Below, piece by piece: positions 10,060 through 63,536 of a stretch of DNA of 64,000 nt. This DNA is from a virus, in the UHGV virus genome UHGV-0134778; one strand, given 5' to 3'. Numbering within the stretch: the first letter of the stretch is position 1; each line of letters begins with the position of its first letter. The position numbers and the translations under genes were made by a program. Under the pieces are notes generated by a model that was not told the origin of the DNA, searched no databases, and saw nothing but the letters and a program-made list of their open reading frames with translations.

Positions 10060-10866
10060 TTAGATAAAACGCTTGAACATAGAAGGTGATGAGATTGATG
10101 GAATCACACAAGGCAGCGCTACCTCCTCTTTCTCCAGGAAATTAATCGCAGAAGCTACACAGTCGGCCCAGTCGTCTTTTCTGTTAAATGTTGATCTTTC
10201 CCCGTTGAACTTTTCAAGTTCAGTCAGAAATGCTTCCAGAGTGTCAGGATGGAAACTGGATTTTACAATCCTCACCATTCCTTGTTGGGCAAGATTGGCA
10301 AAAGGTGAGAACCTTGTCAGTTTAGATTTGTTGGAAGGCATTGGATCTTCTTCAACCCTGAACCCTTCGGCGAGCAAGGATCTGGACGAGGTTAAGAATT
10401 CACTCTTACCTGCCTGACCGGGGTCCACAGAAAATACGATTATGCAATCATCTCCATCAAACTGCGCCTGTTTCCTGATGATCACATCTCGTTCCCCAGC
10501 CTTTTTACAGAACTTGCCTTCCAGACCTGTGGAATACCTACCGTCATCCACGTTCTCAGGACAATAATCCCCGGACAGGTAATAAAAGCCGTCGCTATCT
10601 TTACTTACCTTAACACTGGCGGTAAAGTCAGGAAATTTATTACCGGAAGTTCTCTCGGTTCCTGCCTTATCCCATGCCCTGCAAGATACTGATCCAAGAG
10701 GTACTCTATCGGCATCCCGAAGGAAAGATCTTTGGAAATAGTTTGCACCTTCAGGTTTGGCAAACCAGTTGCCATGAAGAAGCTGGGCTTTTTCAAGCTC
10801 TGGCAGACCTTCAAGGAAAGCAAGGTATTCTGGGTTGTCTCTCAAGCAGACAGGATTATCGAATCC
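10060..10866 (-). CDS. terL: terminase large subunit, C-terminal nuclease part (exon 2 or separately translated fragment)
   Basis: Open frame continues upstream of the ORF-track TTG start to a stop at about 10867; no convincing RBS of its own; acidic residues spaced as in terminase RNase-H-like nuclease domains. Confidence 0.6.
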   Translation of the reverse strand, partial: GFDNPVCLRDNPEYLAFLEGLPELEKAQLLHGNWFAKPEGANYFQRSFLRDADRVPLGSVSCRAWDKAGTERTSGNKFPDFTASVKVSKDSDGFYYLSGDYCPENVDDGRYSTGLEGKFCKKAGERDVIIRKQAQFDGDDCIIVFSVDPGQAGKSEFLTSSRSLLAEGFRVEEDPMPSNKSKLTRFSPFANLAQQGMVRIVKSSFHPDTLEAFLTELEKFNGERSTFNRKDDWADCVASAINFLEKEEVALPCVIPSISSPSMFKRFI

Positions 10867-11837
10867 TTATATTCAAGGGTGGTCGCAACACCACCCTCCG
10901 CACCATTACGTGCTGCTGCATGTTACCATGCAGAGTAGACTATATCACCACCCATCTCAGGGGTGCTTCGCTTTTCGAGCGCCATAAGCTTGCGCCCTAC
11001 TCCCTCTCGGGATAGTCGTTGAACTACATTACCAATCATAATTGTTTGAAATATAGGTGTAAGTCTTACGGTCTTTTATTCCTTTAACAACACTAAAACT
11101 TACTCCCCACTTCTTAGCTATTTTATTTACACACAAAGCCCTACCACTAAGATCCTCGCAGATACCTATTATCTTGTGCTCACTTATCCTATTAGAGGTT
11201 GGCACTTTTCTAAAGTTAAATTCTTTAGAAATATCTGGGTATACTGAGCCATTCTTTATACCACTTACAAGTGGTTGATTGACACCAAACATTTCACAAA
11301 TGTCTTTTACCCTTGCACCTTGCTCTAACAGCCTACATATTTCAAGAGCAGTGGCATCATCTAGGGACCTGTATTTATTGACATAGTCCTTTTTAAGTCC
11401 CATTTCATGAGCGTGATGTGTGTTTTCCTCAGGCGTTGTCCACTCAAGGTTCCATGCGGCGTTATTCAACTTATTGCCATCCAGGTGGTTTACTTGAGTT
11501 TTCACACTGGGGTTATCATTATCTACAAAAGTCATAGCAATAACTCTGTGGACTAGCACTTGGAACTTTTTCCCGCCCTCGCACAAAGTGACCATAGCAT
11601 AGCCAGTCTTTTTCTGCACATTAGGATGGAGGAATTTATTAGAATACAGGCTGTAAATTCTGCCATCGTATGTAGCACAATAATGATTGTAACCTAAAAA
11701 GCCTAAATTTTTCATTTCAAACATCTCCCTACTACAGGTTCGGAAGGGTAATTATAGCTGCTGATTGTCCGTTTAGCAATCGGATTTTCCAGCAATTAAC
11801 GAAGTTATTCGACGTGCATTTCTGCACGAAGCCACTA
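10867..11837 (-). mobile_element. putative group I intron carrying an HNH homing endonuclease gene, inserted in the large terminase gene
   Basis: About 970 nt separate the ATPase and nuclease halves of terL; GC-rich hairpin-forming sequence flanks a free-standing HNH ORF; exact splice sites not determined. Confidence 0.5.
11029..11724 (-). CDS. HNH homing endonuclease
   Basis: 231 aa with HNH_3-like motif (QVNHLDGNKLNNAAWNLEWTTPEEN) and a C-terminal DNA-binding-like region; embedded between the terL halves. Confidence 0.7.
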   Translation of the reverse strand: MFEMKNLGFLGYNHYCATYDGRIYSLYSNKFLHPNVQKKTGYAMVTLCEGGKKFQVLVHRVIAMTFVDNDNPSVKTQVNHLDGNKLNNAAWNLEWTTPEENTHHAHEMGLKKDYVNKYRSLDDATALEICRLLEQGARVKDICEMFGVNQPLVSGIKNGSVYPDISKEFNFRKVPTSNRISEHKIIGICEDLSGRALCVNKIAKKWGVSFSVVKGIKDRKTYTYISNNYDW

Positions 11838-13691: not shown

Positions 13692-13768
13692 TGGTCTCCA
13701 CGGAGTGATTCGAACACTCGACCTCCTGATCCCAAATCAGGCGCTCTACCAAGCTGAGCTACGCGGAG
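13692..13768 (-). tRNA. tRNA-Pro (anticodon TGG)
   Basis: Hand-folded cloverleaf: 7-bp acceptor stem, D arm GCTC/GAGC, anticodon loop TTTGGGA, T loop TTCGAAT, encoded CCA. Confidence 0.85.
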
Positions 13769-13779
13769 TATTTATTATT

Positions 13780-13854
13780 TGGTGGCCCTGGGTGGAATTG
13801 AACCACCGTCTGGCGATTATGAGTCGCTTGCTTGAACCTTCCAGCTACAGGGCC
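13780..13854 (-). tRNA. tRNA-Met (anticodon CAT; elongator type, could be lysidine-modified Ile2)
   Basis: Acceptor GGCCCTG/CAGGGCC, anticodon loop CTCATAA, T loop TTCAATT, encoded CCA; G1-C72 pair argues against initiator. Confidence 0.8.
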
Positions 13855-13855
13855 A

Positions 13856-13931
13856 TGGTGCTGATGGCAGGACTTGAACCTGCAACCTATTGATTACAAA
13901 TCAATTGCACTGCCAATTGTGCTACATCAGC
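13856..13931 (-). tRNA. tRNA-Thr (anticodon TGT)
   Basis: Perfect 7-bp acceptor stem GCTGATG/CATCAGC, anticodon stem-loop ATTGA-TTTGTAA-TCAAT, T loop TTCAAGT, encoded CCA. Confidence 0.85.
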
Positions 13932-13935
13932 AAAA

Positions 13936-14034
13936 GGTGCTAGGTGATGGAATCGAACCACCTATGTATTCAACGACTACCTCGTCTATTTTCAGGATTA
14001 AAAATCCTCGCCCTTGCCAAAGGGCTTACCTAGC
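13936..14034 (-). tRNA. atypical tRNA-like element (99 nt): possible non-canonical tRNA or tRNA pseudogene
   Basis: Perfect 7-bp acceptor stem (GCTAGGT/ACCTAGC), canonical D arm and T arm (GGTGG-TTCGATT-CCATC), but A8-A9 instead of U8, an AGGATT-TTT-AATCCT hairpin in place of a standard anticodon arm, and a ~31-nt insert containing a second hairpin; no CCA encoded. Confidence 0.35.
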
Positions 14035-14132
14035 GCAATATGTTGACCATGTGGCTAGTCGGCGATGACGACTGTAACATTTGATAATCCGGTTCTGCTT
14101 CCGGCTTTCGCTTAATTACAAGGTCAACAATG

Positions 14133-14223
14133 TGGCGGAGAGTAATGGAATCGAACCATCATCGAGTCATCCTCAACGGGACGGTTTTCAAGACCGCTTG
14201 AGCACCATTGCTCCCTACCCTCC
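14133..14223 (-). tRNA. tRNA-Ser (anticodon TGA), class II with long variable arm
   Basis: Acceptor GGAGGGT/ACTCTCC with one G-U pair, anticodon stem-loop GCGGT-CTTGAAA-ACCGT, ~20-nt variable arm, T loop TTCGATT, encoded CCA. Confidence 0.8.
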
Positions 14224-14337
14224 TTTATAAATTACACTGATAATGACACTGATTTTCGAGCAGTTAGTGACTAGTATAAACGACGATAAATATCAATGTC
14301 ATTATCTGTATGATTTATGCATTTAAAAATATAAATT

Positions 14338-14424
14338 TGGTGGGGAGTGGTGGAGTCGAACCACCCGAGTCGCAATGACAATAGATTTACAGTCTACACC
14401 GCTACCTCTACGGGATAACTCCCC
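14338..14424 (-). tRNA. tRNA-Tyr (anticodon GTA), class II
   Basis: Acceptor GGGGAGT/ACTCCCC, anticodon stem-loop GTAGA-CTGTAAA-TCTAT, variable arm, T arm GGTGG-TTCGACT-CCACC, encoded CCA. Confidence 0.8.
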
Positions 14425-14428
14425 AATT

Positions 14429-14503
14429 TGGCACCCCGTACTGGACTCGAACCAGTGTCAACGGCTTAGAAGGCCGCTGCTTTATCCACTAAGCTAACAG
14501 GGC
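14429..14503 (-). tRNA. tRNA-Arg (anticodon TCT)
   Basis: Acceptor GCCCTGT/ACGGGGT with two G-U pairs, D arm GCTT/AAGC, anticodon stem-loop GCGGC-CTTCTAA-GCCGT, T arm ACTGG-TTCGAGT-CCAGT, encoded CCA. Confidence 0.8.
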
Positions 14504-23803: not shown

Positions 23804-23832
23804 TTGACATGACCACACGGATGTGGTATTGT
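23804..23832 (+). promoter_or_regulatory. sigma70-like promoter with palindromic spacer
   Basis: TTGACA-N17-TATTGT; spacer contains the palindrome CCACA-CGGA-TGTGG. Confidence 0.6.
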
Positions 23833-23863
23833 TACCCAGTAAAATGTTAAGGAGAGTTTAACC

Positions 23864-24070
23864 ATGAAAGATTTTCTGTTGGCAATTTTATTCATGGCAG
23901 CATGCTTTGCCTGTGGTGTCGTGTTTGCAGGTGAAACAGCGTATCTTGTAGATGTATATCGGGACAATGGTAAACGTATTTGCCTTTATGAAACAAGCCA
24001 AGGTGAGCTCTACGAGCTTGTGAAACAAGGCGAGGCTGGATCTTGTCCTCGGACTCACTTCTTCGAATAA
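23864..24070 (+). CDS. small membrane or secreted protein (possible lysis-associated)
   Basis: 68 aa with hydrophobic N-terminal segment LLAILFMAACFACGVVFA; directly downstream of endolysin; GGAG RBS. Confidence 0.45.
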   Translation: MKDFLLAILFMAACFACGVVFAGETAYLVDVYRDNGKRICLYETSQGELYELVKQGEAGSCPRTHFFE

Positions 24071-26546: not shown

Positions 26547-26869
26547 TGACTAAAAATTCTGTAGATAATGCAATTATGGAAGCTGTTTTTGAGGATGATC
26601 ATACAACAGGGACCCTTAAAACAAAAAATACATTTATTGTTGCTACAGGTATGTGGCGGTTGTATGAAGATGACACTATTGCATACATCTTGTATACTGA
26701 TGATTACGCAGATGATCGTGTATGGTCTGCTGTTTTAAAAGAAGATTGTGAGCTGATTGAGGGCGAGCGGTTATGCATGTTTACCAGCGTGGAAACAGAC
26801 GTTAAGCTTTGCTCTCTTGTGCTATTCAAAGACAAAGCTTATTCCCCAGATGAAGAGGAAACAGCATGA
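26543..26869 (+). CDS. hypothetical protein
   Basis: 108-aa ORF. Confidence 0.45.
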   Translation: MMTKNSVDNAIMEAVFEDDHTTGTLKTKNTFIVATGMWRLYEDDTIAYILYTDDYADDRVWSAVLKEDCELIEGERLCMFTSVETDVKLCSLVLFKDKAYSPDEEETA

Positions 26870-27495
26870 GAGAAAGACTGCTGTCTATAGACCAGTCTCT
26901 TACCCACACAGCCTGTGTTGTATGGGACGATGGTAGGCCTGTTCATAAGGTTGTGTTACGCACCCAAAGCTCATCTGCAAAAGAGAAGAAACCAGGGACG
27001 GTTTCTTTTGCAACAGCGGCTGAGCGTATTGACTGGATCTGCAAACAGGTTAGATATTATATCCACACGCACGGCGTTGACACCGTGGTTATGGAAGGGC
27101 TCTCCTTCGGATCGCGAGGAGATGCCACACGTGAACTGGCTGGGTTGTTTTACGGTCTTGAAGTTATGCTTTGGGATGCTTTAGCAGATTGTGAAAATGA
27201 CGGCCTGTTTAAGGTTCACACAGTGACACCAACAACTGCCAAAAAGTTTGCTCGTAGTCATCTTCCTGAAGAACTTGCTTTTGAGGAGAAGAAAAAGCTT
27301 GACAAAAGGACAGGTAAAGAGCATACTGTGAAGAAACCTGTTACGATGGATAAAAAGTTGATGGTTAAGGCCTGCGAAGTATCTGAACCCGGGTTCCTGG
27401 ATGGGATCAACTTGGTACAAGGTAAGGCCGATCTCGCAGATGCTTATTGGATAGGTAGGGCGCATCTGGAGGGATTATCGCAAAGCGTAAAATAA
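26866..27495 (+). CDS. putative RuvC-like Holliday junction resolvase
   Basis: N-terminal LSIDQSLTHT, VVMEG and DLADAYWIG segments fit the RuvC acidic-residue pattern; tentative. Confidence 0.45.
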   Translation: MRERLLSIDQSLTHTACVVWDDGRPVHKVVLRTQSSSAKEKKPGTVSFATAAERIDWICKQVRYYIHTHGVDTVVMEGLSFGSRGDATRELAGLFYGLEVMLWDALADCENDGLFKVHTVTPTTAKKFARSHLPEELAFEEKKKLDKRTGKEHTVKKPVTMDKKLMVKACEVSEPGFLDGINLVQGKADLADAYWIGRAHLEGLSQSVK

Positions 27496-37342: not shown

Positions 37343-37621
37343 ATGAGTTGTGAAAAATCTTTTTTCATTATCATCTACGGTAAGGATAACTGCCCACATT
37401 GTGTAAGAGCAAAAGAATTTGCAGTAAGCAAAGGTATACCTTTCGTATACAAGACGCTCGGTGAAGGATACACAAAAGAAGAGCTTATTGAGAAGTGTAG
37501 TCCATTTGTTCCCAGAACGTTGCCTCAGATCTTCTTGGAAAGCAACCTTGATAGTGTCCACATAGGTGGTGCTGACGATTTCATCTCTTTTGTTAAGAAT
37601 GGTCTTGGAGAGAAAAAGTGA
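37343..37621 (+). CDS. glutaredoxin-like protein (T4 NrdC-like)
   Basis: CPHC active site and C-terminal LPQIF ... HIGG pattern. Confidence 0.8.
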   Translation: MSCEKSFFIIIYGKDNCPHCVRAKEFAVSKGIPFVYKTLGEGYTKEELIEKCSPFVPRTLPQIFLESNLDSVHIGGADDFISFVKNGLGEKK

Positions 37622-38469
37622 AAGTTGTAAAACGGGACGGCAGAGAAGAGGTCTATAACGGAGTTAAGGTAATCAAGGCGGCAGAGTCCGCCTTACTTGA
37701 GTCTGGGCATACTGAAGAAGAAGCTTACCGGATCGCTTGTGCGGTTAATGAAGTTGTTGCCAACAATCTACCAACCGACCAGTGCACGATCTCTGTAAAA
37801 AATATCCATATCCTTGTTGAAGATGCTCTTATGGATATGGGTTTAAAATGTGCAGCCAGAGAATATATCCAGTATAGACAGACAAGAGATAATAACAGAG
37901 AGGCAGGTGGAAAACTGCTTGCAGATATTAGTGGCTTCTTGGATCGAACTTGTGATGAATTTACAAAAGAAAACGCAAATAAGCCCACTAATCATGTACA
38001 TACTCATCGTGACCTGCTTGCAGGTATCCTTAGCAAACACCTTGCATCAACACAGATACTGCCAGATCGTGTCTCCGAAGAGCACAACAAGGGATTCATC
38101 CATGTGCATGATCTTGACTATCTGATCAGTCCGTTAACAAACTGCTGTTTGGTGAATTATCCGGATATGCTGGAAAACGGATTCAACATTGGCAACGCCC
38201 ATGTCAGTAAGCCGAAGTCAATAGGGGTTGCAACAACAATCCTCAGCCAAATCTCTAGTGCAGTAGCTAGTGCTCAATATGGTGGTCAGACCATGAGCCA
38301 TATTGATCATTATCTGGCGCAGTATGCTGAAGCAACCTATGAGAAGAATCTTAAATTTTGTCAGGAACATTGGTTGCCAGATGCTGAGACTGTTGCAATG
38401 CAAATGACAGATAAAGACGTGTTTGATAGTATGCAAACTTTGCTCTACCAAATCAATACGTTAACTTCT
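37618..38469 (+). CDS. nrdD: anaerobic ribonucleoside-triphosphate reductase NrdD, exon 1
   Basis: ATP-cone N-terminus (VVKRDGREEVYNGVKVIKA) and NrdD N-terminal domain; frame hits a stop 9 nt later; 3' boundary inferred, approximate. Confidence 0.75.
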
Positions 38470-39270
38470 GTCAACGGTTAACAAACTGGCCGTTGTAAAA
38501 CTCTCCTAACCTCATAAGAGGGGTCGGTAAATCCGGCTAACGGGGAACGCTAAGGCGAAAGCTATGCCAATCCCGTGACTAGTTCTTACAGGAGTTGGAA
38601 CGGTTGTAACGACTAACGAAAGGCAGAGATGCTTGACAAACATTTCTGAACCGAGTAGTGTAGGGGTTAGTTGAAATACTAACTTCGAAATGGAGAGACT
38701 CTATGAAAAAGATCATTCTTAATGGTGAAGAATCGAACTACGTGATTGATGAGGTTGGAAACGTATACGGAAAACGTGGAATGCTGCACCCCATATTGTG
38801 GGGAGGTTATGGAAAAGGTAACAAGCATGTCAAACGCCGCTATATGTATTCTTTCAACCACAAAGGTAAGAAGATTCGAATCCAAACTTCAAGGGTTGTT
38901 GCCTTGTATTGTTTGCCAGATGTCCCAGAAGACCCTGAAAACTGGGAAGTGAATCATAAAGATGGCAATACATTGAATGATCATCCGTCTAACCTGGAGT
39001 GGGTTTTGCCGGAAGATAATAAGAGACATGCTTTCCGAACAGGGCTTTGTCCAGGCAAGTGCTACAGGAAAGTGCAGGCATACCGAGGGAAAACCTTGGT
39101 GGGTGAATATCCTTCACTCTATGCCTGTGCAAAAGCCTTAAATTTGAACGTAGGGAACGTCCATAGGGCTATCGAAGGAAATGCCGAAGGTAAGCATCTC
39201 ACAATAAAGGGTTATTATCTTATTGAAGTAGAGTAAGAGATAGTCTGGCCCTGTGGAAACACAGGGGTGG
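38470..39270 (+). mobile_element. putative group I intron in nrdD carrying an HNH homing endonuclease ORF
   Basis: ~800 nt separate two collinear NrdD halves; 5' portion is GC-rich with hairpins, then an HNH ORF, then a short structured 3' segment ending in G before the exon-2 frame; boundaries approximate. Confidence 0.6.
38703..39236 (+). CDS. HNH homing endonuclease
   Basis: HNH_3-like motif WEVNHKDGNTLNDHPSNLEWVLPEDN; own GGAG RBS. Confidence 0.7.
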   Translation: MKKIILNGEESNYVIDEVGNVYGKRGMLHPILWGGYGKGNKHVKRRYMYSFNHKGKKIRIQTSRVVALYCLPDVPEDPENWEVNHKDGNTLNDHPSNLEWVLPEDNKRHAFRTGLCPGKCYRKVQAYRGKTLVGEYPSLYACAKALNLNVGNVHRAIEGNAEGKHLTIKGYYLIEVE

Positions 39271-40539
39271 AGACAGCAGACTCCATTCATCACATTAAGT
39301 TTAGGACTGGATACCTCAATCTTTGGTAGAATGATTACCAAAAACTACCTGAAAGTCCACAAAATGGGTCTTGGTGAAGAACGTATCACACCTGTGTTCC
39401 CTAAGGTGTTGTTCTTCCTGGAGGAGGGTATCAACATGAACCCCGAGGATCCTAACTATGATTTGAAACGATTAGCTCTGGAATGCTCTGCAGAGCGGAT
39501 TTATCCTGACTTCGTATCTGTACCACTAAATAGAAAAGTGACAGGTTCAACAGAAGGTAATGTCACAAGCATGGGTTGCCGGAGTTTTCTTAGCAAATAC
39601 AATGACTTGGAAACAGGAGAGGAGAAATACCTTGGCAGATTTAACTTAGGTGTTGTTAGCCTTAACCTACCAATGATTGCAGCCAAAGCTAAAACGGAAG
39701 GTGTTGATTTCTTTGCAGTTCTTGACGAGTACTTGGATCTGGCCTACGAGGCTCACCTTGTAAGGGTTAACCGTCTAAAAGGAACAAAGGCAGGGCAGAA
39801 CCCCATCATGTGGTGTGAAGGAGCCCTTGCTCGCCTGGATCCTGAAGAGAGTATTGATAAACTTTTCTATGACGGGTATGCTTCCATAAGTATTGGATAT
39901 ATTGGTGTGTATGAAACCTGCCAGATTTTAGGCAGAGAGGGAGACAAGTCCTTAGCTCTTGGGATCCTTCAGCACATGAAAGACGCTTGTGATCGGTACA
40001 AAAAAGAAAGTGGTCTGGCATTCAGCTTGTACGGCACTCCTTCAGAGAGCTTGTGCTATAAGGCTGCAACATGTCTAGATCGTGAATATCCTGAAGTGTT
40101 GAAGCACGAGCACGAATACCTTACCAACAGTTTCCACCAGCCCGTGTGGATCAATAGTTCACCTTTTGACAAGTGGAAGTATGAGGAAGGTTTTGCTATG
40201 ATCTCTTCTGGCGGCAACATTGGATACATAGAAACACCTAACCTGAAAAACAACCCGGATGCTTTGGAAGCCCTTGTCGATTTCGGGTATAAACACATTA
40301 TGTATTTTGGTATTAACCAACCTGTGGATAAATGCCTTAAGTGTGGATTCTCTGGTGAGTTCAGTGCAACAGCTAAAGGCTTTGTATGCCCAGAGTGTGG
40401 AAACCATGAAGAAGGAACGATCAGCGTGATTAGACGTGTATCTGGGTATTTGTCTAGTCCAAACTCCCGTCCTTACAACAAAGGTAAGCAAGCGGAAGTT
40501 ATAGAACGGGTTAAGCACTACGGAAGTTGTGGTTGCTGA
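39271..40539 (+). CDS. nrdD: anaerobic ribonucleoside-triphosphate reductase NrdD, exon 2
   Basis: Glycyl-radical motif RVSGYLS near the C-terminus and zinc-site cysteines CLKCG ... CPECG; continues NrdD sequence from exon 1. Confidence 0.75.
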   Translation, partial: RQQTPFITLSLGLDTSIFGRMITKNYLKVHKMGLGEERITPVFPKVLFFLEEGINMNPEDPNYDLKRLALECSAERIYPDFVSVPLNRKVTGSTEGNVTSMGCRSFLSKYNDLETGEEKYLGRFNLGVVSLNLPMIAAKAKTEGVDFFAVLDEYLDLAYEAHLVRVNRLKGTKAGQNPIMWCEGALARLDPEESIDKLFYDGYASISIGYIGVYETCQILGREGDKSLALGILQHMKDACDRYKKESGLAFSLYGTPSESLCYKAATCLDREYPEVLKHEHEYLTNSFHQPVWINSSPFDKWKYEEGFAMISSGGNIGYIETPNLKNNPDALEALVDFGYKHIMYFGINQPVDKCLKCGFSGEFSATAKGFVCPECGNHEEGTISVIRRVSGYLSSPNSRPYNKGKQAEVIERVKHYGSCGC

Positions 40540-40602
40540 TACTTGACAAAAGCCACAAGGATGTGGCATATTGTTATCACACAGTAAACTAGGAGGTGCA
40601 GT

Positions 40603-40719
40603 ATGTCTACAGGTATTTATAAAATTTGCAAGTGCGGTTGTCATTGCAATCTTCGTTGGTGTAAGGCACTGGACGATTTTATTTGGCATTGTCCTAAATG
40701 CGATGCGGAGTACTTATGA
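40603..40719 (+). CDS. small Cys-rich protein (38 aa; putative zinc ribbon), not in the ORF track
   Basis: Strong RBS AGGAGGTG 7 nt upstream; MSTGIYKICKCGCHCNLRWCKALDDFIWHCPKCDAEYL; its stop overlaps the nrdG start (ATGA). Confidence 0.5.
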   Translation: MSTGIYKICKCGCHCNLRWCKALDDFIWHCPKCDAEYL

Positions 40720-41189
40720 ATATTGTCGGATACACAGAAATATCCTACACCGAAGGGCCGGGTCTCAGGACGGCCTTGTGGGTATCTGGGTGCCCACACG
40801 CTTGTCCTGGTTGCTTTAATCAAGCATTTTGGTCAAAAGATAAGGGAAGAGAATTCACCGAAGAAGATTTGCAGAGAATTTTGTCAGATTTAGACAATGA
40901 ATCTATATGCGGTATTTCTTTGCTTGGTGGAGAACCTTTGGCTACGTATAATGAGCCCGGTATTATTAAACTTATGAGGAGAATTAAGGAAAAGTTTGGT
41001 GACAAGAAAACTATTCTTGTGTATACTGGGTTCACATTTGAGCATATCTCTAGTGATGTTCTTGAGCTGGCTGATATCATCATTGATGGCAAGTATGTAA
41101 AAGATTTACCAACAAAGAAACCATTCCGAGGCAGCGATAACCAAAGAATGTTTAAAAAGGTAGCAGGCGGTTGGGTTCAGGTTGACTAG
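40716..41189 (+). CDS. nrdG: anaerobic ribonucleotide reductase activating protein NrdG (radical SAM)
   Basis: Radical-SAM Cys motif CPHACPGC; start set at the ATG (MNIVGYTE) coupled to the upstream micro-ORF. Confidence 0.8.
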   Translation: MNIVGYTEISYTEGPGLRTALWVSGCPHACPGCFNQAFWSKDKGREFTEEDLQRILSDLDNESICGISLLGGEPLATYNEPGIIKLMRRIKEKFGDKKTILVYTGFTFEHISSDVLELADIIIDGKYVKDLPTKKPFRGSDNQRMFKKVAGGWVQVD

Positions 41190-45598: not shown

Positions 45599-45637
45599 TA
45601 ATTTATCTTACCAGGGACGGTAAAAGTAGGAGGTAGC

Positions 45638-45871
45638 ATGAAAGTTAAATTTCTTACAGATTTAGGGTACCCTTCCTTGGTTGACTGTGTTGGTAAAATT
45701 GTGGAAGCAAAACGGCTATCTGCAAACGATAATGTTGTCATGGTTAAGGGAAAAGATTTACTAGCTGCAGGTGCAGAGTCTGGCAGGATCTCTCCTGACT
45801 ATACGTATTACCTGTCTTTAAGTAATCTACCAGAACGAGGCGGCAAAGGCCTTGAAGTTGTGGAGGAGTGA
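45638..45871 (+). CDS. small protein of the MKVK...EVVEE paralog family
   Basis: 77 aa; shared N-terminus MKVKFL and acidic C-terminus EVVEE with the 49196, 50925 and 52362 ORFs. Confidence 0.55.
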   Translation: MKVKFLTDLGYPSLVDCVGKIVEAKRLSANDNVVMVKGKDLLAAGAESGRISPDYTYYLSLSNLPERGGKGLEVVEE

Positions 45872-47531: not shown

Positions 47532-47591
47532 TGTGCATTATGGCACAAAGGATGTGCCATAACTAAATAAACTAAGAAAGAGGTAGAGAGA

Positions 47592-47939
47592 ATGTCAAAG
47601 ATTAAATCGATATTAATGTGGGTGGCTGTTGTAGCTTTTGTAGGATACTGGACTTGGGAAACTGAATTAAAAGATATTGGGTATACCAGTCTTGAGAGTA
47701 AGGCGTGCATTGGCATAACCGATGCATTCAGGCAGAATGCTATGGATCACGAATGTGTCGATGCAGATATAGATGAGAAACTGTCTAAGGACAAAGATTT
47801 TTACCATGGTCATGCCTTGCTTGATAGTGGTGATACTGTAGAATTCTGGTCGTGGTTCCGTGAAGATGGGACAATAAAGACAGCAGTAAAGATTTCCAAC
47901 AAAGAGTTGATGCTGTTGCAGCAGAAGGAGGTGCAATGA
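47592..47939 (+). CDS. hypothetical protein with N-terminal signal/TM segment
   Basis: AAGAGG RBS; N-terminal hydrophobic segment ILMWVAVVAFVGYW. Confidence 0.5.
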   Translation: MSKIKSILMWVAVVAFVGYWTWETELKDIGYTSLESKACIGITDAFRQNAMDHECVDADIDEKLSKDKDFYHGHALLDSGDTVEFWSWFREDGTIKTAVKISNKELMLLQQKEVQ

Positions 47940-51194: not shown

Positions 51195-51286
51195 TCCTGC
51201 TTGGGTTGGAATACTTTCCTCGACAAGAAAGGTTTATAATTATTTGTGGGAAAGGAATCCCCATCTCTTACCAGAGGTGATACTAT

Positions 51287-51550
51287 ATGATTGTTTATTT
51301 TAAAACTTCAGGTGGATACCCTGATTCTCAAAGCTTGATTGGAAAAACGTGCACAGCATACTCACCTCTTGATGAGGAGGTAAGTGGTATCCTACGAGAT
51401 ATGTATCGGATTGATCCACAAGAAGCTTTTGATCAAAACCTTGTATTTGTCAAGGGATCAGACATAAAGTCTTTGGGGGCATTCCCTGAAGCAGATGATG
51501 ATGCTGTTTATTCGTTTATGACACCTTTTGAAGCTATGGTTGTGGGGTAA
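51287..51550 (+). CDS. hypothetical small protein (distant member of the paralog family)
   Basis: 87-aa ORF. Confidence 0.45.
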   Translation: MIVYFKTSGGYPDSQSLIGKTCTAYSPLDEEVSGILRDMYRIDPQEAFDQNLVFVKGSDIKSLGAFPEADDDAVYSFMTPFEAMVVG

Positions 51551-52282: not shown

Positions 52283-52361
52283 TTTTATGCCACACAGGTG
52301 TTGACAACACCAACCCTGTGTGCAATAATACCTTCATCTTAACAAGATAGGAGACCGATTG

Positions 52362-54374: not shown

Positions 54375-54680
54375 ATGGCTAAATCTAAAGTTGAACTGTT
54401 CACCTCTCTGCCTTCTGACACTGCAGAGCGTGATCGCCTCCGTAAAACAATTGAAGAGCTGGTGGAACTTCAGCTTCAGATTAAAGATCTGAAAGACGCT
54501 ATCAAGGATATTATTCTTGTAGAGAAACAGGATCACCTGTATTCTCCTAAGTTTATCAAGTCATTGGTGGCTACCGAATTCGATATCCGCTATGAAGCTG
54601 AAAAACGTCGAGCTAAAATCGAAGAAGAGGTTGAGCACATGTCTGAAGCAGACATTCTGTTCAAACGCTCTGCAGAATAA
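54375..54680 (+). CDS. hypothetical protein, coiled-coil-like
   Basis: 101 aa with AAGGAGA RBS; followed by a strong terminator. Confidence 0.5.
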   Translation: MAKSKVELFTSLPSDTAERDRLRKTIEELVELQLQIKDLKDAIKDIILVEKQDHLYSPKFIKSLVATEFDIRYEAEKRRAKIEEEVEHMSEADILFKRSAE

Positions 54681-56279: not shown

Positions 56280-57804
56280 CACACAATTAGTTGCCCGGCT
56301 AAAGTGCTGGAAGCACCCATAACATCTTCCAACTAAATTTCCTACCAACACAGTTACTTACCCACCACACATGACTGTTTGCTTGTTTAGTGAGCAGTCA
56401 TCCCTTGACATTCTTGCCTATCTTGATAAAATTAAGTTCTTCTCTTTTCTTTTACCGAGTAATTCGGGTTTTCTGTTCTCTTCGGTTTGAAGGGGTATGG
56501 AGATACACCTGAGTGAACAGGGTGAACAACCGAACCTTTAGCTATGGCATTAGCATGGCGAAGCGGACGGGTGACGAAAGAGGGGCCGGAGGACACCAGT
56601 CACTGCCATATAGTATATGGGTGATAACCTGAAGAGTCTGAATAAGTGTTTAAGTACCAGTCAGAGGAAAAGGTGAATGGTAGCCGAAGGGGGAGGGGGG
56701 TTTCTTATATCTTTAATTTGTATACTTTATATACACTTGTAAACCAATTCAATTAGGATCTGTTTACCACACAAAGTGGATGGAGACAAATATCACCTAT
56801 TAAACTTGAATTATTTATAGAAAATACCACAACACTACTTAAGTCTTTGATTTTACACACAAATCCTACAGATACTCACCCTCCATATTTAACATACTTG
56901 TAACATATCCCATACTCTACCTGTCTGATCAATTTACCCAACTACATCCCCATATTTTTCCTGTCTGTACTACCCCTGCCCCGCCGGGAGTCCCGTCATA
57001 TCTGGCTTCCCAGCAAATATCACACCCACAAATATCATTGCCTGAAGAGGGTTTCATCCCATAATACACACCTTGCCTGAAGAGCGATTCATACACCAAC
57101 TAAATTTTTTAATTGACCCCTCCCCGCCGCCGGAGAGGTTGGCTTTTCCCACACAGGCCTGAAGAGTCAGCCAGAAATATCTGAACAGGCCCAGTTATAC
57201 CACGATTTTGACATGACCGACAGGAGTGCTACCCTGTCAGGAGCCGGTAGCGACTGGAGTGCTGCCAGGCGGACGAAATGGGAATACTTCTCATTCTTAT
57301 AACAATTCTCAAATATCGAGGCAGTGAGGCAAATTAATAGGTGAGGCCGTTCACACAGTGGCACAACATTTGCAACCTATCTTGTGGGGTGAATGAGAAT
57401 ACCTATCATTGTGAGAATAGTTATCATTACGGGCAATTTAACATAATACCCATTATGCGCACCACTGGCGATACATACAGGGATTGATAACATGGGTTAC
57501 TGTTTACGCACATAACAATTATATTTCTTACTATTTGTGCGGGATATAGTTAGCAACCAATAGATTAGATATTGACCTGCGGACTTCTGACCGTCCAGAC
57601 GTCTAAACGCCCACACAACAAGGGTTATACATACATTCCTGAATGTAAACAGGGCCGCAAAAATGCTACCATACCAGTTTGTAAATTTTTCATGCAGCAC
57701 TTGACAAAGAGGAGAAAAACTTGTCTGACACTTTTGCCACTTTTGACACTTTTACCTTTGACACAATATGACACAATAACGGCTGTTACTATTCCATATC
57801 TCAC

Positions 57805-57858
57805 TGTTTACGCATAGACTGTTTACGCCTGAATAGTTTACGCCCAAACTGTTTACAC
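57805..57858. repeat. four direct repeats of TGTTTACGC-like 9-mers with 15-bp period
   Basis: Copies at 57805, 57820, 57835 and 57850 (TGTTTACGC, TGTTTACGC, AGTTTACGC, TGTTTACAC). Confidence 0.8.
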
Positions 57859-57869
57859 AGAGATGATGA

Positions 57870-58163
57870 GCCATGCCATTCGTTTGCATGAAAACAATTA
57901 ACAAGATAACAATTAACAAGTTAATAATCTTTCGCTGGCTATGCCAGGTGACTAGGTCACCCCTTCGGGCGTTTATATGACATAATATAAAAGCAGGGCA
58001 ACTATTAGAAGATCTATAGTTGCCTTGCTTGTTATGTCATGATTAACTAAATACAAGGCAACTATGATCTGAGTAATAGATTGCAGAAAAACTATCACGG
58101 GGGTGATGGTTACTGCTTTTATATTATGTCGCGACTCCGTCGCGCCATGCCATTCGTTTGCAT
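57870..58163. repeat. composite repeat locus: 20-bp direct repeats flanking inverted repeats and a 28-bp palindrome
   Basis: GCCATGCCATTCGTTTGCAT at 57870-57889 and 58144-58163; inverted 18-mer TGACATAATATAAAAGCAG at ~57978-57996 vs ~58113-58130; palindrome GGCAACTAT-N10-ATAGTTGCC at ~57997-58024. Confidence 0.75.
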
Positions 58164-58823
58164 AGTTGCCTTATTGTTACAGGTAAAATAATTACATTAT
58201 TAATTATTTCTTATCTTTCTCTTAGTCATCTAATGATTCCAGTCAGTATAGTAATGTACAGTAAACATTAGACGACTAAAGATTTCTCTGTTTATGATAA
58301 CTCATCGTGATAATTTCGGGCTGTTTACGAAAAATGTTGACACCTGAGCTGATTTATGTTATGCAGTCTACACGAATAATTATTTTATGCAGGTATTGAC
58401 TATTCCGTTATTCTGTGGTTGGAATAAATACTTTGCAGGCTATAGAATGGCGTGCGTACGTGAATTCTGAGATCTGGCGGCTATAGTTATACTCGATTTT
58501 TCGCGTAGAACACGCTTTAGATGCTGTGTAAGTGTATGACTTATAAAGATTTTTAGTTGTTGACAAGATATTGGAGATGTGCATCAGGTTAAAATTTGTG
58601 CAATAGCGGCATTACGTGCACTTTTGGGAGAGAAAACGGGTAAAAATGGACTTGCTACCACACAATGAAAAATTATGCAATAGTTATTTTCCATGTATAT
58701 TTGTACAGTATGTGGGATTGATGGCTAGTCAATTATTCCACTTGCCAGGTAGGGCCGTTTATGGTAGGAGAAGAGCAGACAAAAAGAAAGGGGCCTAAGC
58801 CCCTTGATAATTCAGTTAAAAAA

Positions 58824-63288: not shown

Positions 63289-63536
63289 TTTGTTTCCCCT
63301 TTTGGAACTTTGTCTGTGTGGTGGGGAGTGTCTCCCCGTTGATTGTTATTATCCATATTCTGGACCGGATTGCAACACTCAGGAAGAAAAATTTTTTGAA
63401 AAAAGTTAGGCCCCCAGGGATCGGGGGCCGTTATCAGTTGCTTACAGCGATAAAATACATCCCTACGCCTAACAATATTTCAAGGGCGATGATCTCCAGC
63501 CATACCATAACACGGCGCGCCTTATCGGTGCGGGGC

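What the first reader, a model, noticed from the sequence alone, without database searches (positions are those of the whole stretch)
23804..23832. Recurrent palindrome CACA-N-GGATGTG embedded in promoter regions of several plus-strand genes
A TTGACA-N17-TATTGT promoter carries the palindrome CCACACGGATGTGG in its spacer. Near-identical palindromes occur upstream of the Cys-rich micro-ORF and nrdG (GCCACAAGGATGTGGC, ~40552-40567, also after a TTGACA) and upstream of the 47592 gene (TGGCACAAAGGATGTGCCA, ~47541-47559). A conserved dyad at a fixed place in promoters suggests a shared regulator or a promoter-specificity element.
Basis: seen in the sequence. Interest (0 to 1): 0.45.

Follow-up and report, generated by a model that had tools for sequence, protein, structure and literature searches.

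The report
CsrA-type RNA hairpins inside phage promoters
Three short palindromes between genes of an rV5-like E. coli phage are real and conserved, and they look like RNA hairpins that display the binding motif of the host translation regulator CsrA, set inside promoter-like cassettes, so the phage may tie a few of its genes to the host's physiological state.

Summary
CACA-N(1-2)-GGA-TGTG occurs exactly three times in the window, at 23814, 40554 and 47544, against 0.16 expected. The complete genome of the nearest relative has the same three sites and no others. All three are intergenic, on the coding strand, and start 10-13 nt after the upstream stop codon. The window is a Vequintavirus (rV5-like coliphage).

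Two sites lie in TTGACA-N17/18 promoter spacers, and site 1 is the published predicted promoter P090 of rV5. All three abut a -10-like hexamer through TGTG. However, about ten other sigma-70-like promoters in the window lack the dyad, the arm spacing varies, and the conserved centre (GGA) is asymmetric. A dimeric DNA operator or a promoter-specificity element therefore fits poorly.

The sequences fold as RNA hairpins whose apical loops read A-N-GGA-X, closed by ACA/UGU. This is the SELEX consensus for host CsrA (RUACARGGAUGU). A second GGA or AGAGA lies at the Shine-Dalgarno sequence 32-35 nt downstream. GGA is kept in 70 of 71 site-by-genome instances.

The best reading is CsrA-type sites nested in PeSL-like promoter/stem-loop cassettes. 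No binding has been tested. Confidence is about 0.45.

The parts
23812..23827 (+). Site 1 hairpin ACCAC-ACGGAU-GUGGU. In this lineage an A-U pair closes the loop to CGGA. GGA is at 23819-23821.
   Evidence: Sequence. RNA fold -5.9 kcal/mol, or -12 with flanks. Orthologs: 13 of 14 genomes keep GGA and all 14 keep the 5-bp stem.
23804..23832 (+). Sigma-70 promoter-like cassette around site 1: TTGACA (23804-23809), a 17-nt spacer holding the hairpin, then TGg-TATTGT (extended -10, 23827-23832).
   Evidence: Promoter scan, 10 of 12 matches with TG. Annotated as P90/P090 in rV5 and predicted by PhagePromoter in Gotham. TTGACA is invariant in 14 genomes.
23849..23866 (+). Shine-Dalgarno AAGGAG (second GGA at 23851-23853, 32 nt after the loop GGA) and the ATG of the 68-aa signal-peptide/membrane protein gene (23864-24070).
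   Evidence: The protein falls in phrog_4641, function unknown.
40552..40567 (+). Site 2 hairpin GCCAC-AAGGAU-GUGGC. GGA is at 40559-40561. It matches 10 of 12 positions of the CsrA SELEX consensus.
   Evidence: Fold -7.8 kcal/mol, z -3.3. Invariant in 10 of 11 genomes; NHEP1 has GUCAC, which pairs as G.U.
40543..40572 (+). Promoter-like cassette around site 2: TTGACA (40543-40548), an 18-nt spacer, then TGg-CATATT (40567-40572).
   Evidence: Promoter scan. Conserved in relatives except JEP1, where an ORF is inserted directly after the hairpin.
40590..40719 (+). Shine-Dalgarno UAGGAGG (GGA at 40592-40594, 33 nt after the loop GGA) and the 38-aa Cys-rich micro-ORF (40603-40719), which overlaps the start of nrdG (40716-41189).
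   Evidence: The micro-ORF is phrog_20137. NHEP1 annotation.
47538..47562 (+). Site 3 hairpin UUAUGGCAC-AAAGGAU-GUGCCAUAA. GGA is at 47550-47552. The 17-nt core GGCACAAAGGAUGUGCC is invariant.
   Evidence: Fold -12.7 kcal/mol, z -4.9. The core is identical in all 17 sequences compared while the flanks diverge.
47558..47594 (+). -10-like hexamer CATAAC preceded by TGc (CATAAT or CATAGT in relatives; no TTGACA), then AGAGA at 47585-47589 (a secondary CsrA motif, 35 nt after the loop GGA) and the ATG of the 115-aa membrane-anchored protein gene (47592-47939).
   Evidence: The list of secondary CsrA motifs is in PMC4066749.
45608..45623 (+). Weaker fourth candidate: UUACC-AGGGAC-GGUAA, 14 nt before the Shine-Dalgarno AGGAGG of gene 45638-45871.
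   Evidence: Loop and GGA are invariant in 15 genomes, and stem changes go only to G.U.
51247..51262 (+). Weaker fifth candidate: UGGGA-AAGGAA-UCCC(C), upstream of gene 51287-51550.
   Evidence: Only loop position X varies (A/G) across 14 genomes.

Best explanation
The palindromes are the DNA image of short RNA hairpins on the coding strand of intercistronic regions.

- Structure: each hairpin presents A-N(1-2)-GGA-U in its apical loop on a 5-9 bp stem whose top reads ACA/UGU. This is the high-affinity recognition element of the host translational regulator CsrA (SELEX consensus RUACARGGAUGU; optimal form an ANGGAX hexaloop on a stem).
- Presence in RNA: each hairpin starts 10-13 nt after the stop codon of the upstream gene with no terminator in between. 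It must therefore be present in the upstream gene's mRNA and in any read-through transcript.
- Proposed action (inferred, not shown): one subunit of a CsrA dimer binds the hairpin and the other binds a weaker site at the ribosome-binding site 32-35 nt downstream (AAGGAG, AGGAGG, AGAGA). This would tune, most likely repress, translation of the next small cistron according to the level of free CsrA in the host.
- Promoter context: two hairpins lie in the spacer of sigma-70 promoter-like cassettes, and all three abut a -10-like hexamer. This is the layout known as PeSL in T4-type phages. Transcripts started at those promoters would lack the hairpin and escape high-affinity CsrA control.

Shown: the motif, its non-random occurrence, its fold, its conservation pattern and the promoter-like context. 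Inferred: CsrA binding, the direction of regulation and promoter activity.
For: 1. Match to the defined CsrA site.
   - ACA and GGA are the 100%-conserved SELEX elements, with GGA in a hairpin loop (PMC4347634; PMC2896534).
   - The highest-affinity form is an ANGGAX hexaloop directly on a stem (PMC4005645).
   - All three sites carry ACA, GGA and UGU in that arrangement.
   - Site 2 matches 10 of 12 consensus positions and site 1 matches 9 of 12. The validated ColE7 cel sites match 9 and 7.
2. Predicted folds put GGA in the apical loop.
3. The motif is non-random.
   - ACA-N(1-2)-GGATGT: 3 in 2,684 nt of + strand intergenic DNA, against 0.03 in shuffles.
   - ANGGAX-loop hairpins: 4-5 observed against 0.03-0.14 in shuffles, with 0 of 2,000 shuffles reaching the observed count.
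   - 4 of 54 intergenic sense hairpins carry such a loop, against 0 of 53 antisense and 5 of 420 coding.
   - Control phages: 1 of 70 and 0 of 16.
4. The ortholog pattern fits ANGGAX.
   - GGA is kept in 70 of 71 site-by-genome instances.
   - The only recurrently variable loop position is X.
   - Stem substitutions go only to G.U, which pairs only as + strand RNA.
5. A second GGA overlaps the Shine-Dalgarno sequence 32-33 nt downstream at sites 1 and 2, and AGAGA lies 35 nt downstream at site 3. All are within the 10-63 nt range for bridging by a CsrA dimer (PMC4066749).
6. Direct precedent: CsrA represses the ColE7 lysis gene through the loop of an intercistronic stem-loop plus the downstream Shine-Dalgarno sequence.
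7. The phage encodes no CsrA homologue, so the partner would be the host protein.
Against: - No binding or expression data exist.
- At sites 1 and 2 the hairpin lies between the -35 and -10 hexamers, so mRNAs started at those promoters would not contain it.
- One relative (A141) has AGA in place of GGA at site 1. Gotham lacks GGA in the site 1 Shine-Dalgarno sequence.
- In most relatives site 1 is ACGGAC, which departs from the SELEX UGU, although it still fits ANGGAX.
- The published CSRA_TARGET rule (at least 3 sites per leader) is not met, because each leader has two.
- Sites 1 and 2 are paralogous cassettes, so the three copies are not three independent events.
- GGA resembles a Shine-Dalgarno sequence, which raises its background frequency in leaders.
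- A distant subfamily member (SSBI34) has a plain promoter and no GGA hairpin before the homologue of the site 1 gene.
Confidence: 0.45

Rival explanations
1. A purely PeSL-like cassette. The stem-loop is a structural attenuator or terminator for transcription arriving from the upstream gene and overlaps a fresh sigma-70 promoter for the next gene. The cassette also serves as a recombination module. On this view the GGA loop has no specific partner.
For: - In the T4-type phages RB49 and phi1, PeSLs are intergenic sigma-70 promoters with a stem-loop most often between -35 and -10 or overlapping -10, followed by a Shine-Dalgarno sequence and ATG (PMC2839356). Sites 1 and 2 have exactly this layout.
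- The intergenic regions of sites 1 and 2 are the most similar of 406 intergenic pairs (score 39 against a mean of 14.2, sd 3.2).
- Site 1 of this lineage differs from rV5-type site 1 at four positions, and all four changes move towards the site 2 sequence.
- Gene insertions or replacements occur right beside the cassettes in JEP1 and A141.
- Another promoter, at 52301, is also enclosed by a stem ending in TGTG.
- Site 2 is flagged as terminator-like.
Against: - The core stems are weak (-5 to -8 kcal/mol) and are not followed by a U-tract.
- Structure alone does not explain why ACA, GGA and UGU are shared by three hairpins with different stems.
- It also does not explain why only loop position X varies among orthologs.
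- There are only three copies per genome, against dozens of PeSLs in RB49.
- This rival is compatible with the CsrA reading rather than exclusive of it.
Confidence: 0.25
2. The dyad is a DNA operator in the promoter spacer for a dimeric transcription factor from the phage or the host, which represses or activates these promoters.
For: - The sequence is palindromic and lies between -35 and -10 at two promoters, abutting -10 at all three.
- The phage encodes at least one predicted transcriptional regulator (54375-54680, phrog_639).
- The block from -35 to -10 is highly conserved.
Against: - Half-site spacing differs (CACA-N4-TGTG at two sites, N5 at the third).
- The inner dyad position is broken in 11 of 14 genomes at site 1.
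- The conserved centre is asymmetric (GGA).
- NHEP1 site 2 breaks the DNA dyad while keeping G.U pairing in RNA.
- The arms are only 4-5 conserved bp with a centre-to-centre distance of 9-10 bp.
- Site 3 lacks a -35 hexamer.
- I know of no regulator with this site (own knowledge).
Confidence: 0.1
3. An RNA hairpin used by something other than CsrA. Candidates are a phage-encoded RNA-binding protein, a processing or stability determinant at the 3' end of the upstream mRNA, or a loop-displayed Shine-Dalgarno-like ribosome standby site.
For: - The strand specificity, the fold and the conservation are the same as for the CsrA reading.
- The hairpins start 10-13 nt after stop codons, where 3' stabilising hairpins are usually found.
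- AAGGA in a loop is complementary to the 16S rRNA 3' end (own knowledge).
Against: - No candidate phage protein was identified.
- The ACA...UGU closure and the A-N-GGA-X pattern are explained specifically by CsrA and not by the anti-Shine-Dalgarno sequence (ACGGAU and AGGGAC are poor Shine-Dalgarno sequences).
Confidence: 0.15

Closest known systems
High-affinity CsrA/RsmA binding hairpins (SELEX consensus RUACARGGAUGU; ANGGAX hexaloop on a stem)
   Same: GGA lies in the apical loop, with an A two positions 5' of it. The loop is closed by ACA/UGU on a short variable stem. A second GGA lies at the Shine-Dalgarno sequence within 10-63 nt.
   Different: The sites are in a virulent phage genome rather than a host mRNA or sRNA. 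They lie inside promoter-like spacers. Each leader has only two sites. Binding is untested.
ColE7 cel leader: T1 stem-loop after cei plus the cel Shine-Dalgarno sequence, repressed by CsrA (PMC2896534)
   Same: An extrachromosomal element with an intercistronic stem-loop just after the upstream gene. GGA in its loop is paired with a GGA at the next gene's Shine-Dalgarno sequence.
   Different: T1 is a true terminator in an SOS-induced plasmid operon. Here the stems are shorter, lack U-tracts and overlap promoter hexamers.
PeSL (promoter-early stem-loop) cassettes of T4-type phages RB49/phi1 (PMC2839356)
   Same: An intergenic sigma-70-like promoter with a stem-loop between -35 and -10 or overlapping -10, followed by a Shine-Dalgarno sequence and ATG. 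The copies resemble one another, and there are signs of recombination and gene insertion beside them.
   Different: The phage belongs to a different subfamily (Vequintavirinae). There are three copies rather than dozens. The stems are weak and not G/C tracts. The loop has a specific conserved sequence. Terminator activity is untested.
Dyad operators in promoter spacers (for example MerR-type promoters)
   Same: A palindrome between -35 and -10. If TATTGT is taken as the -10, site 2 would have a 20-bp spacer.
   Different: The spacing between arms varies, the centre is asymmetric and conserved, the dyad is broken in most orthologs of site 1, and no cognate regulator is known.

Membership tests
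CsrA/RsmA high-affinity RNA site | GGA located in the loop of a hairpin | tested here: met
   The MFE and centroid folds place GGA in the apical loop at all three sites and at the two weaker ones.
CsrA/RsmA high-affinity RNA site | Sequence context A(N)GGA, with ACA and GGA of RUACARGGAUGU present | tested here: met
   The sites read ACA-C-GGA-UGU, ACA-A-GGA-UGU and ACA-AA-GGA-UGU. The consensus is given, and the ANGGAX form.
CsrA/RsmA high-affinity RNA site | [quoted passage not shown] | tested here: met
   GGA-to-GGA distances are 32 nt (site 1) and 33 nt (site 2). Site 3 has only the secondary motif AGAGA, 35 nt away.
CsrA/RsmA high-affinity RNA site | CSRA_TARGET rule: at least 3 sites and at least 2 pairs 10-60 nt apart in the leader | tested here: not met
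   Each leader has two sites (for the rule; sequences).
CsrA/RsmA high-affinity RNA site | The site is present in the transcript of the regulated gene | tested here: inconclusive
   The site is necessarily present in read-through RNA, because there is no terminator between the upstream stop codon and the hairpin. It would be absent from transcripts started at the overlapping promoters. I found no published TSS mapping for this genus.
CsrA/RsmA high-affinity RNA site | Physical binding by CsrA and csrA-dependent expression | not testable with these tools
   This needs EMSA, toeprinting, reporter fusions or CLIP-seq.
PeSL promoter/stem-loop cassette | An intergenic sigma-70-like promoter followed by a Shine-Dalgarno sequence and ATG | tested here: met
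   Sites 1 and 2 have TTGACA-N17/18 with an extended -10, and site 1 is annotated P090. Site 3 has only an extended -10-like element.
PeSL promoter/stem-loop cassette | A stem-loop between -35 and -10 or overlapping -10 | tested here: met
   The definition is.
PeSL promoter/stem-loop cassette | The stem-loop is an effective transcription terminator | not tested
   Sequence alone makes this unlikely: the cores are -5 to -8 kcal/mol, there is no U-tract, and only site 2 passes a lax terminator scan.
PeSL promoter/stem-loop cassette | Many similar copies flanking variable genes and mediating shuffling | tested here: inconclusive
   There are only 3 copies per genome. However, sites 1 and 2 are the most similar intergenic pair, there is a gene-conversion-like pattern, and insertions lie adjacent to the cassettes.
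Dimeric DNA operator in promoter spacer | Fixed half-site spacing and symmetric conservation | tested here: not met
   Spacing is N4, N4 and N5. The inner position is broken in 11 of 14 genomes at site 1. The conserved centre is asymmetric.
Intrinsic terminator | A G+C-rich stem followed by a run of U | tested here: not met
   The tails are UAUUGUUACC, AUAUUGUUAU and CUAAAUAAAC. Only site 2 reaches 5 T in 8.

The most novel reading that the evidence does not exclude
A virulent coliphage genus has wired several early or middle cistrons to the host Csr system with SELEX-grade CsrA hairpins placed inside promoter spacers. The same gene would then be made from two mRNA isoforms: a read-through form with the hairpin, which is CsrA-controlled, and a promoter-proximal form without it, which is CsrA-blind. 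Expression would therefore depend on both the transcription programme and host carbon or growth status. Abundant phage transcripts might also act as a CsrA sponge.
Probability: 0.3. Interest if true: 0.65.

Novelty: new member of a known kind. Interest (0 to 1): 0.5.

Why it matters
CsrA is a global regulator that reports the host's carbon and growth status. Direct CsrA control of genes of a strictly lytic phage has not, as far as my searches of the held library showed, been described. The nearest precedents are a colicin plasmid lysis gene and phage-encoded CsrA homologues whose role is only beginning to be tested.

If these hairpins bind CsrA, rV5-like phages, which are widely used for O157 typing and biocontrol, would adjust a small set of genes to host physiology. 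The genes are a secreted or membrane protein next to the endolysin gene, the leader of the anaerobic ribonucleotide reductase activase, and a membrane protein. The sites would also be compact, testable parts.

The finding also extends the PeSL promoter/stem-loop architecture beyond T4-type phages.

Tried and rejected
1. A phage-encoded CsrA. tblastn of E. coli CsrA against the window and the whole NHEP1 genome gave nothing better than E = 1.7.
2. Rfam. No family matches at the sites. The only hits were tRNAs and a weak group I intron in nrdD.
3. IMG/VR loci found through the downstream proteins. Only one related contig turned up, so conservation was studied in GenBank Vequintavirus records instead.
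4. IS200/IS605 or REP-like hairpin ends tied to the nearby ORFs annotated as 'transposase'. These ORFs have no Pfam support, so the idea was dropped.
5. An extended lower helix in which TTGACA pairs with UGUUA. It is predicted in this window (-12 kcal/mol). It is broken in rV5 at site 1 and in the C9/V18 type at site 2, while the -10 hexamers stay intact. The flanks are therefore better explained as promoter elements.
6. The generic consensus RTACARGGATGT with up to 3 mismatches. It is not enriched (183 against 161 expected). The signal lies in the hairpin context, not in loose matches.
7. Conservation in a distant subfamily member (SSBI34). It has a plain terminator plus TTGACT-N17-TATAAT and no GGA hairpin, so the element is specific to the genus.
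8. Published transcription-start maps for Vequintavirus. None were found.
9. Function of the downstream proteins. Pfam and PHROGs give only 'unknown function'.

Full report
**Identity of the window.** A 4.6 kb segment around the finding is 99.4% identical to Escherichia phage NHEP1 and 93-99% identical to more than 100 other Vequintavirus (rV5-like) coliphage records. The finding lies in the long + strand block of early and middle genes. These include the ligase, endolysin, exonucleases and thymidylate synthase, the aerobic and anaerobic ribonucleotide reductases, PhoH and ClpP, followed by many small ORFs.

- Site 1: TTGACA 23804-23809, CCACACGGATGTGG 23813-23826, TATTGT 23827-23832.
- Site 2: TTGACA 40543-40548, GCCACAAGGATGTGGC 40552-40567.
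- Site 3: TGGCACAAAGGATGTGCCA 47541-47559, with pairing that extends to 47538-47562.

CACA-N(0-3)-GGATGTG occurs three times on both strands of the window against 0.16 expected, and no shuffle out of 100 reached three. In the complete 137 kb NHEP1 genome the same three positions are the only matches. All three are on the coding strand, and each hairpin starts 10-13 nt after the stop codon of the upstream gene (endolysin, nrdD, and a virion structural protein, in that order). The genes that follow are:
- a 68-aa protein with a signal peptide or membrane anchor;
- a 38-aa Cys-rich micro-ORF that overlaps nrdG;
- a 115-aa membrane-anchored protein.

All three have unknown function.

**Promoter context.**
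- The scan scores TTGACA-N17-TATTGT (site 1) and TTGACA-N18-CATATT (site 2) at 10 of 12 matches, both with an extended -10 TG.
- Site 1 is annotated as sigma-70 promoter P90 in the rV5 GenBank record and listed as P090 in Table S4 of the rV5 paper. Both are predictions. Sites 2 and 3 are not listed.
- TTGACA and the -10 hexamers are conserved in relatives.
- Site 3 has no -35 hexamer. Its 3' arm runs into CATAAC, which reads CATAAT or CATAGT in relatives.
- In all three sites, therefore, TGTG-S precedes a -10-like hexamer. This is the TRTGn form of the extended -10 (own knowledge).
- A distant subfamily member, SSBI34, has a plain terminator plus TTGACT-N17-TATAAT before the homologue of the site 1 gene. 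A promoter at that place is therefore credible.
- About ten other intergenic sigma-70-like promoters in the same block have no such dyad. With three copies per genome, the dyad is not a promoter-class signature.

**Why an RNA hairpin rather than a DNA operator.**
- The arms are separated by 4, 4 and 5 nt.
- The stems extend with different but complementary bases: A-CCAC/GUGG-U, GCCAC/GUGGC, and UUAUGGCAC/GUGCCAUAA.
- The conserved centre, GGA, is asymmetric.
- Eleven of 14 genomes read CCACA-CGGA-CGTGG at site 1. This breaks the inner dyad position but leaves a 5-bp stem with the hexaloop ACGGAC.
- Orthologous stem substitutions are all one-sided changes to G.U (NHEP1 at site 2; site 4) or touch only the outermost pair (site 5). 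G.U pairs only as + strand RNA.
- Predicted folds give -5.9, -7.8 and -12.7 kcal/mol for the three hairpins, with GGA apical.
- In this window the flanks (UGACA with UGUUA) could add a lower helix (-12 kcal/mol). That pairing is broken in several relatives while the -10 hexamers are kept, so the flanks are better read as promoter elements.

**What the hairpin resembles.**
- The SELEX consensus for E. coli CsrA is RUACARGGAUGU. [quoted passage not shown]
- Structural work defines the highest-affinity form as an ANGGAX hexaloop directly on a stem. CLIP-seq finds A(U)GGA in apical loops.
- The three sites read ACA-C-GGA-UGU, ACA-A-GGA-UGU and ACA-AA-GGA-UGU.
- Sites 2 and 1 match 10 and 9 of the 12 consensus positions. 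The experimentally validated sites of the ColE7 cel leader match 9 and 7.
- A second GGA overlaps the Shine-Dalgarno sequence 32 nt (site 1, AAGGAG) and 33 nt (site 2, AGGAGG) downstream of the loop GGA.
- Site 3 has AGAGA, a documented secondary CsrA motif, 35 nt downstream. All three distances fall within the 10-63 nt range over which one CsrA dimer bridges two sites.
- The phage has no CsrA homologue of its own.

**Is the class enriched?**
- Relaxing the search to any ANGGAX or ANNGGAX loop on a stem of at least 4 bp adds two weaker intergenic sense-strand hairpins. These are 45608-45623 (UUACC-AGGGAC-GGUAA, 14 nt before AGGAGG) and 51247-51262 (UGGGA-AAGGAA-UCCC).
- In the 2,684 nt of + strand intergenic DNA between 18.4 and 56.4 kb there are 4-5 such hairpins, against 0.03-0.14 in dinucleotide shuffles. 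None of 2,000 shuffles reached the observed count.
- Among real hairpins with 6-7 nt loops, 4 of 54 intergenic sense hairpins have this loop, against 0 of 53 intergenic antisense and 5 of 420 in coding sequence.
- Two control phages give 1 of 70 (a Felixounavirus) and 0 of 16 (SSBI34).
- Over the five sites and 11-17 genomes each, GGA is retained in 70 of 71 instances. The only loop position that varies repeatedly is X, the degenerate position of ANGGAX (U/C at site 1, A/G at site 5). The single exception is A141, which reads AGA at site 1 and also lacks GGA in that gene's Shine-Dalgarno sequence.

**The cassette aspect.**
- The intergenic regions of sites 1 and 2 are the most similar of all 406 intergenic pairs (score 39; mean 14.2, sd 3.2). 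The similarity runs from TTGACA through the hairpin and -10 to a CAGTAAA box.
- Site 1 of this lineage differs from the rV5 type at four positions, and all four changes move towards the site 2 sequence. This looks like short-patch gene conversion.
- In JEP1 a 311-aa ORF sits directly 3' of the site 2 hairpin. In A141 the sequence upstream of site 1 is replaced up to about 14 nt before TTGACA.
- This matches the PeSL (promoter-early stem-loop) cassettes of the T4-type phages RB49 and phi1. PeSLs are intergenic sigma-70 promoters whose stem-loop is most commonly between -35 and -10 or overlapping -10. Their stem-loop acts as a terminator, and they mediate modular shuffling.
- The hairpins here are much weaker than PeSL stems, lack U-tracts (only site 2 passes a lax terminator scan), and number three rather than dozens.

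**Synthesis.** The reading I favour has two parts.
- The element is a PeSL-like promoter/stem-loop cassette.
- Its stem-loop has the specific sequence of a high-affinity CsrA site.

No terminator separates the upstream stop codons from the hairpins, so the hairpins must be transcribed as part of the upstream mRNAs and of any read-through transcript. There they could recruit host CsrA together with the downstream Shine-Dalgarno site and tune translation of the next cistron. Transcripts initiated at the overlapping promoters would lack the hairpin.

The closest functional precedent is the ColE7 operon. There CsrA represses the lysis gene through the loop of the intercistronic T1 stem-loop plus the cel Shine-Dalgarno sequence.

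What is shown:
- the motif and its statistics;
- the fold;
- the conservation pattern;
- the promoter-like context.

What is inferred:
- CsrA binding;
- the direction of regulation;
- promoter activity.

Weak points:
- the nesting of the hairpin inside the promoter;
- the A141 exception;
- the two-site leaders, which fail the published rule of at least three sites;
- the non-independence of the paralogous copies.

**Novelty.** The promoter prediction at site 1 is published, but the palindrome and its CsrA-like nature are not mentioned in the rV5 paper. Literature searches found phage-encoded CsrA homologues and host csrA knock-down effects on phage resistance, but no CsrA sites in lytic phage mRNAs. 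I rate it a new member of known kinds (a CsrA-type site and a PeSL-type cassette), of moderate interest, and directly testable.

Noticed in passing
window 37618-40539: nrdD is a single 2,124-nt gene in NHEP1 and rV5 but is interrupted in this window. The pieces are exon 37618-38481, an HNH (I-HmuI-like) endonuclease ORF at 38703-39236, and exon 39253-40539. There is a weak Rfam group I intron match at 39121-39266 (25 bits, E = 0.0011, below the gathering score). JEP1 has two such interruptions.
   Followed up: partly
window 56400-58400: An ORF-free region carries iteron-like direct repeats. CTGTTTACGC occurs four times at roughly 15-nt spacing (57803-57859), with one more copy at 57499. TGACAC-TTTT-type units occur at 9-nt spacing (57726-57770). 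This may be a replication origin or a regulatory region.
   Followed up: partly
window 52291-52329: Another promoter, TTGACA(52301)-N17-AATAAT, is enclosed by an 8-bp inverted repeat: CACACAGG (52291-52298) and CCTGTGTG (52315-52322). Its 3' arm also ends in TGTG one base before the -10. The loop has no GGA.
   Followed up: no
window 45608-45623 and 51247-51262: Two further conserved intergenic sense-strand hairpins have ANGGAX hexaloops (AGGGAC and AAGGAA), upstream of small genes of unknown function. The NHEP1 genome has similar hairpins outside this window, near record positions 109037-109058, 91129-91146 and 74439-74456 (- strand).
   Followed up: partly
window 26984-27009: A 10-bp hairpin, AGAAGAAACC-AGGGAC-GGTTTCTTTT, lies inside the 26866-27495 ORF (annotated as a RuvC-like resolvase in NHEP1). 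It is conserved in relatives.
   Followed up: no
window 23819-23845 compared with 40559-40589: Site 1 of this lineage differs from rV5-type site 1 at four positions (GGAC to GGAT; CCTCATAAA to CCCAGTAAA). All four changes move towards the site 2 sequence, which suggests gene conversion between the two cassettes.
   Followed up: partly
L010 (JEP1) about 10343-11333, and L017 (A141) upstream of the site 1 gene: A 311-aa ORF (JEP1_174) is inserted directly 3' of the site 2 hairpin in JEP1, and its own Shine-Dalgarno sequence (AAGAGGA) again contains GGA. In A141 a different sequence replaces the endolysin 3' end up to about 14 nt before the site 1 TTGACA. In A141 and D# the sequence directly upstream of the micro-ORF is also the JEP1 type, not the site 2 hairpin.
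   Followed up: partly
window 13695-14503 (- strand): A cluster of six tRNA genes.
   Followed up: no
window 63409-63429: A G+C-rich hairpin, GGCCCCC-AGGGATC-GGGGGCC, probably a terminator. Its loop also contains AGGGA.
   Followed up: no
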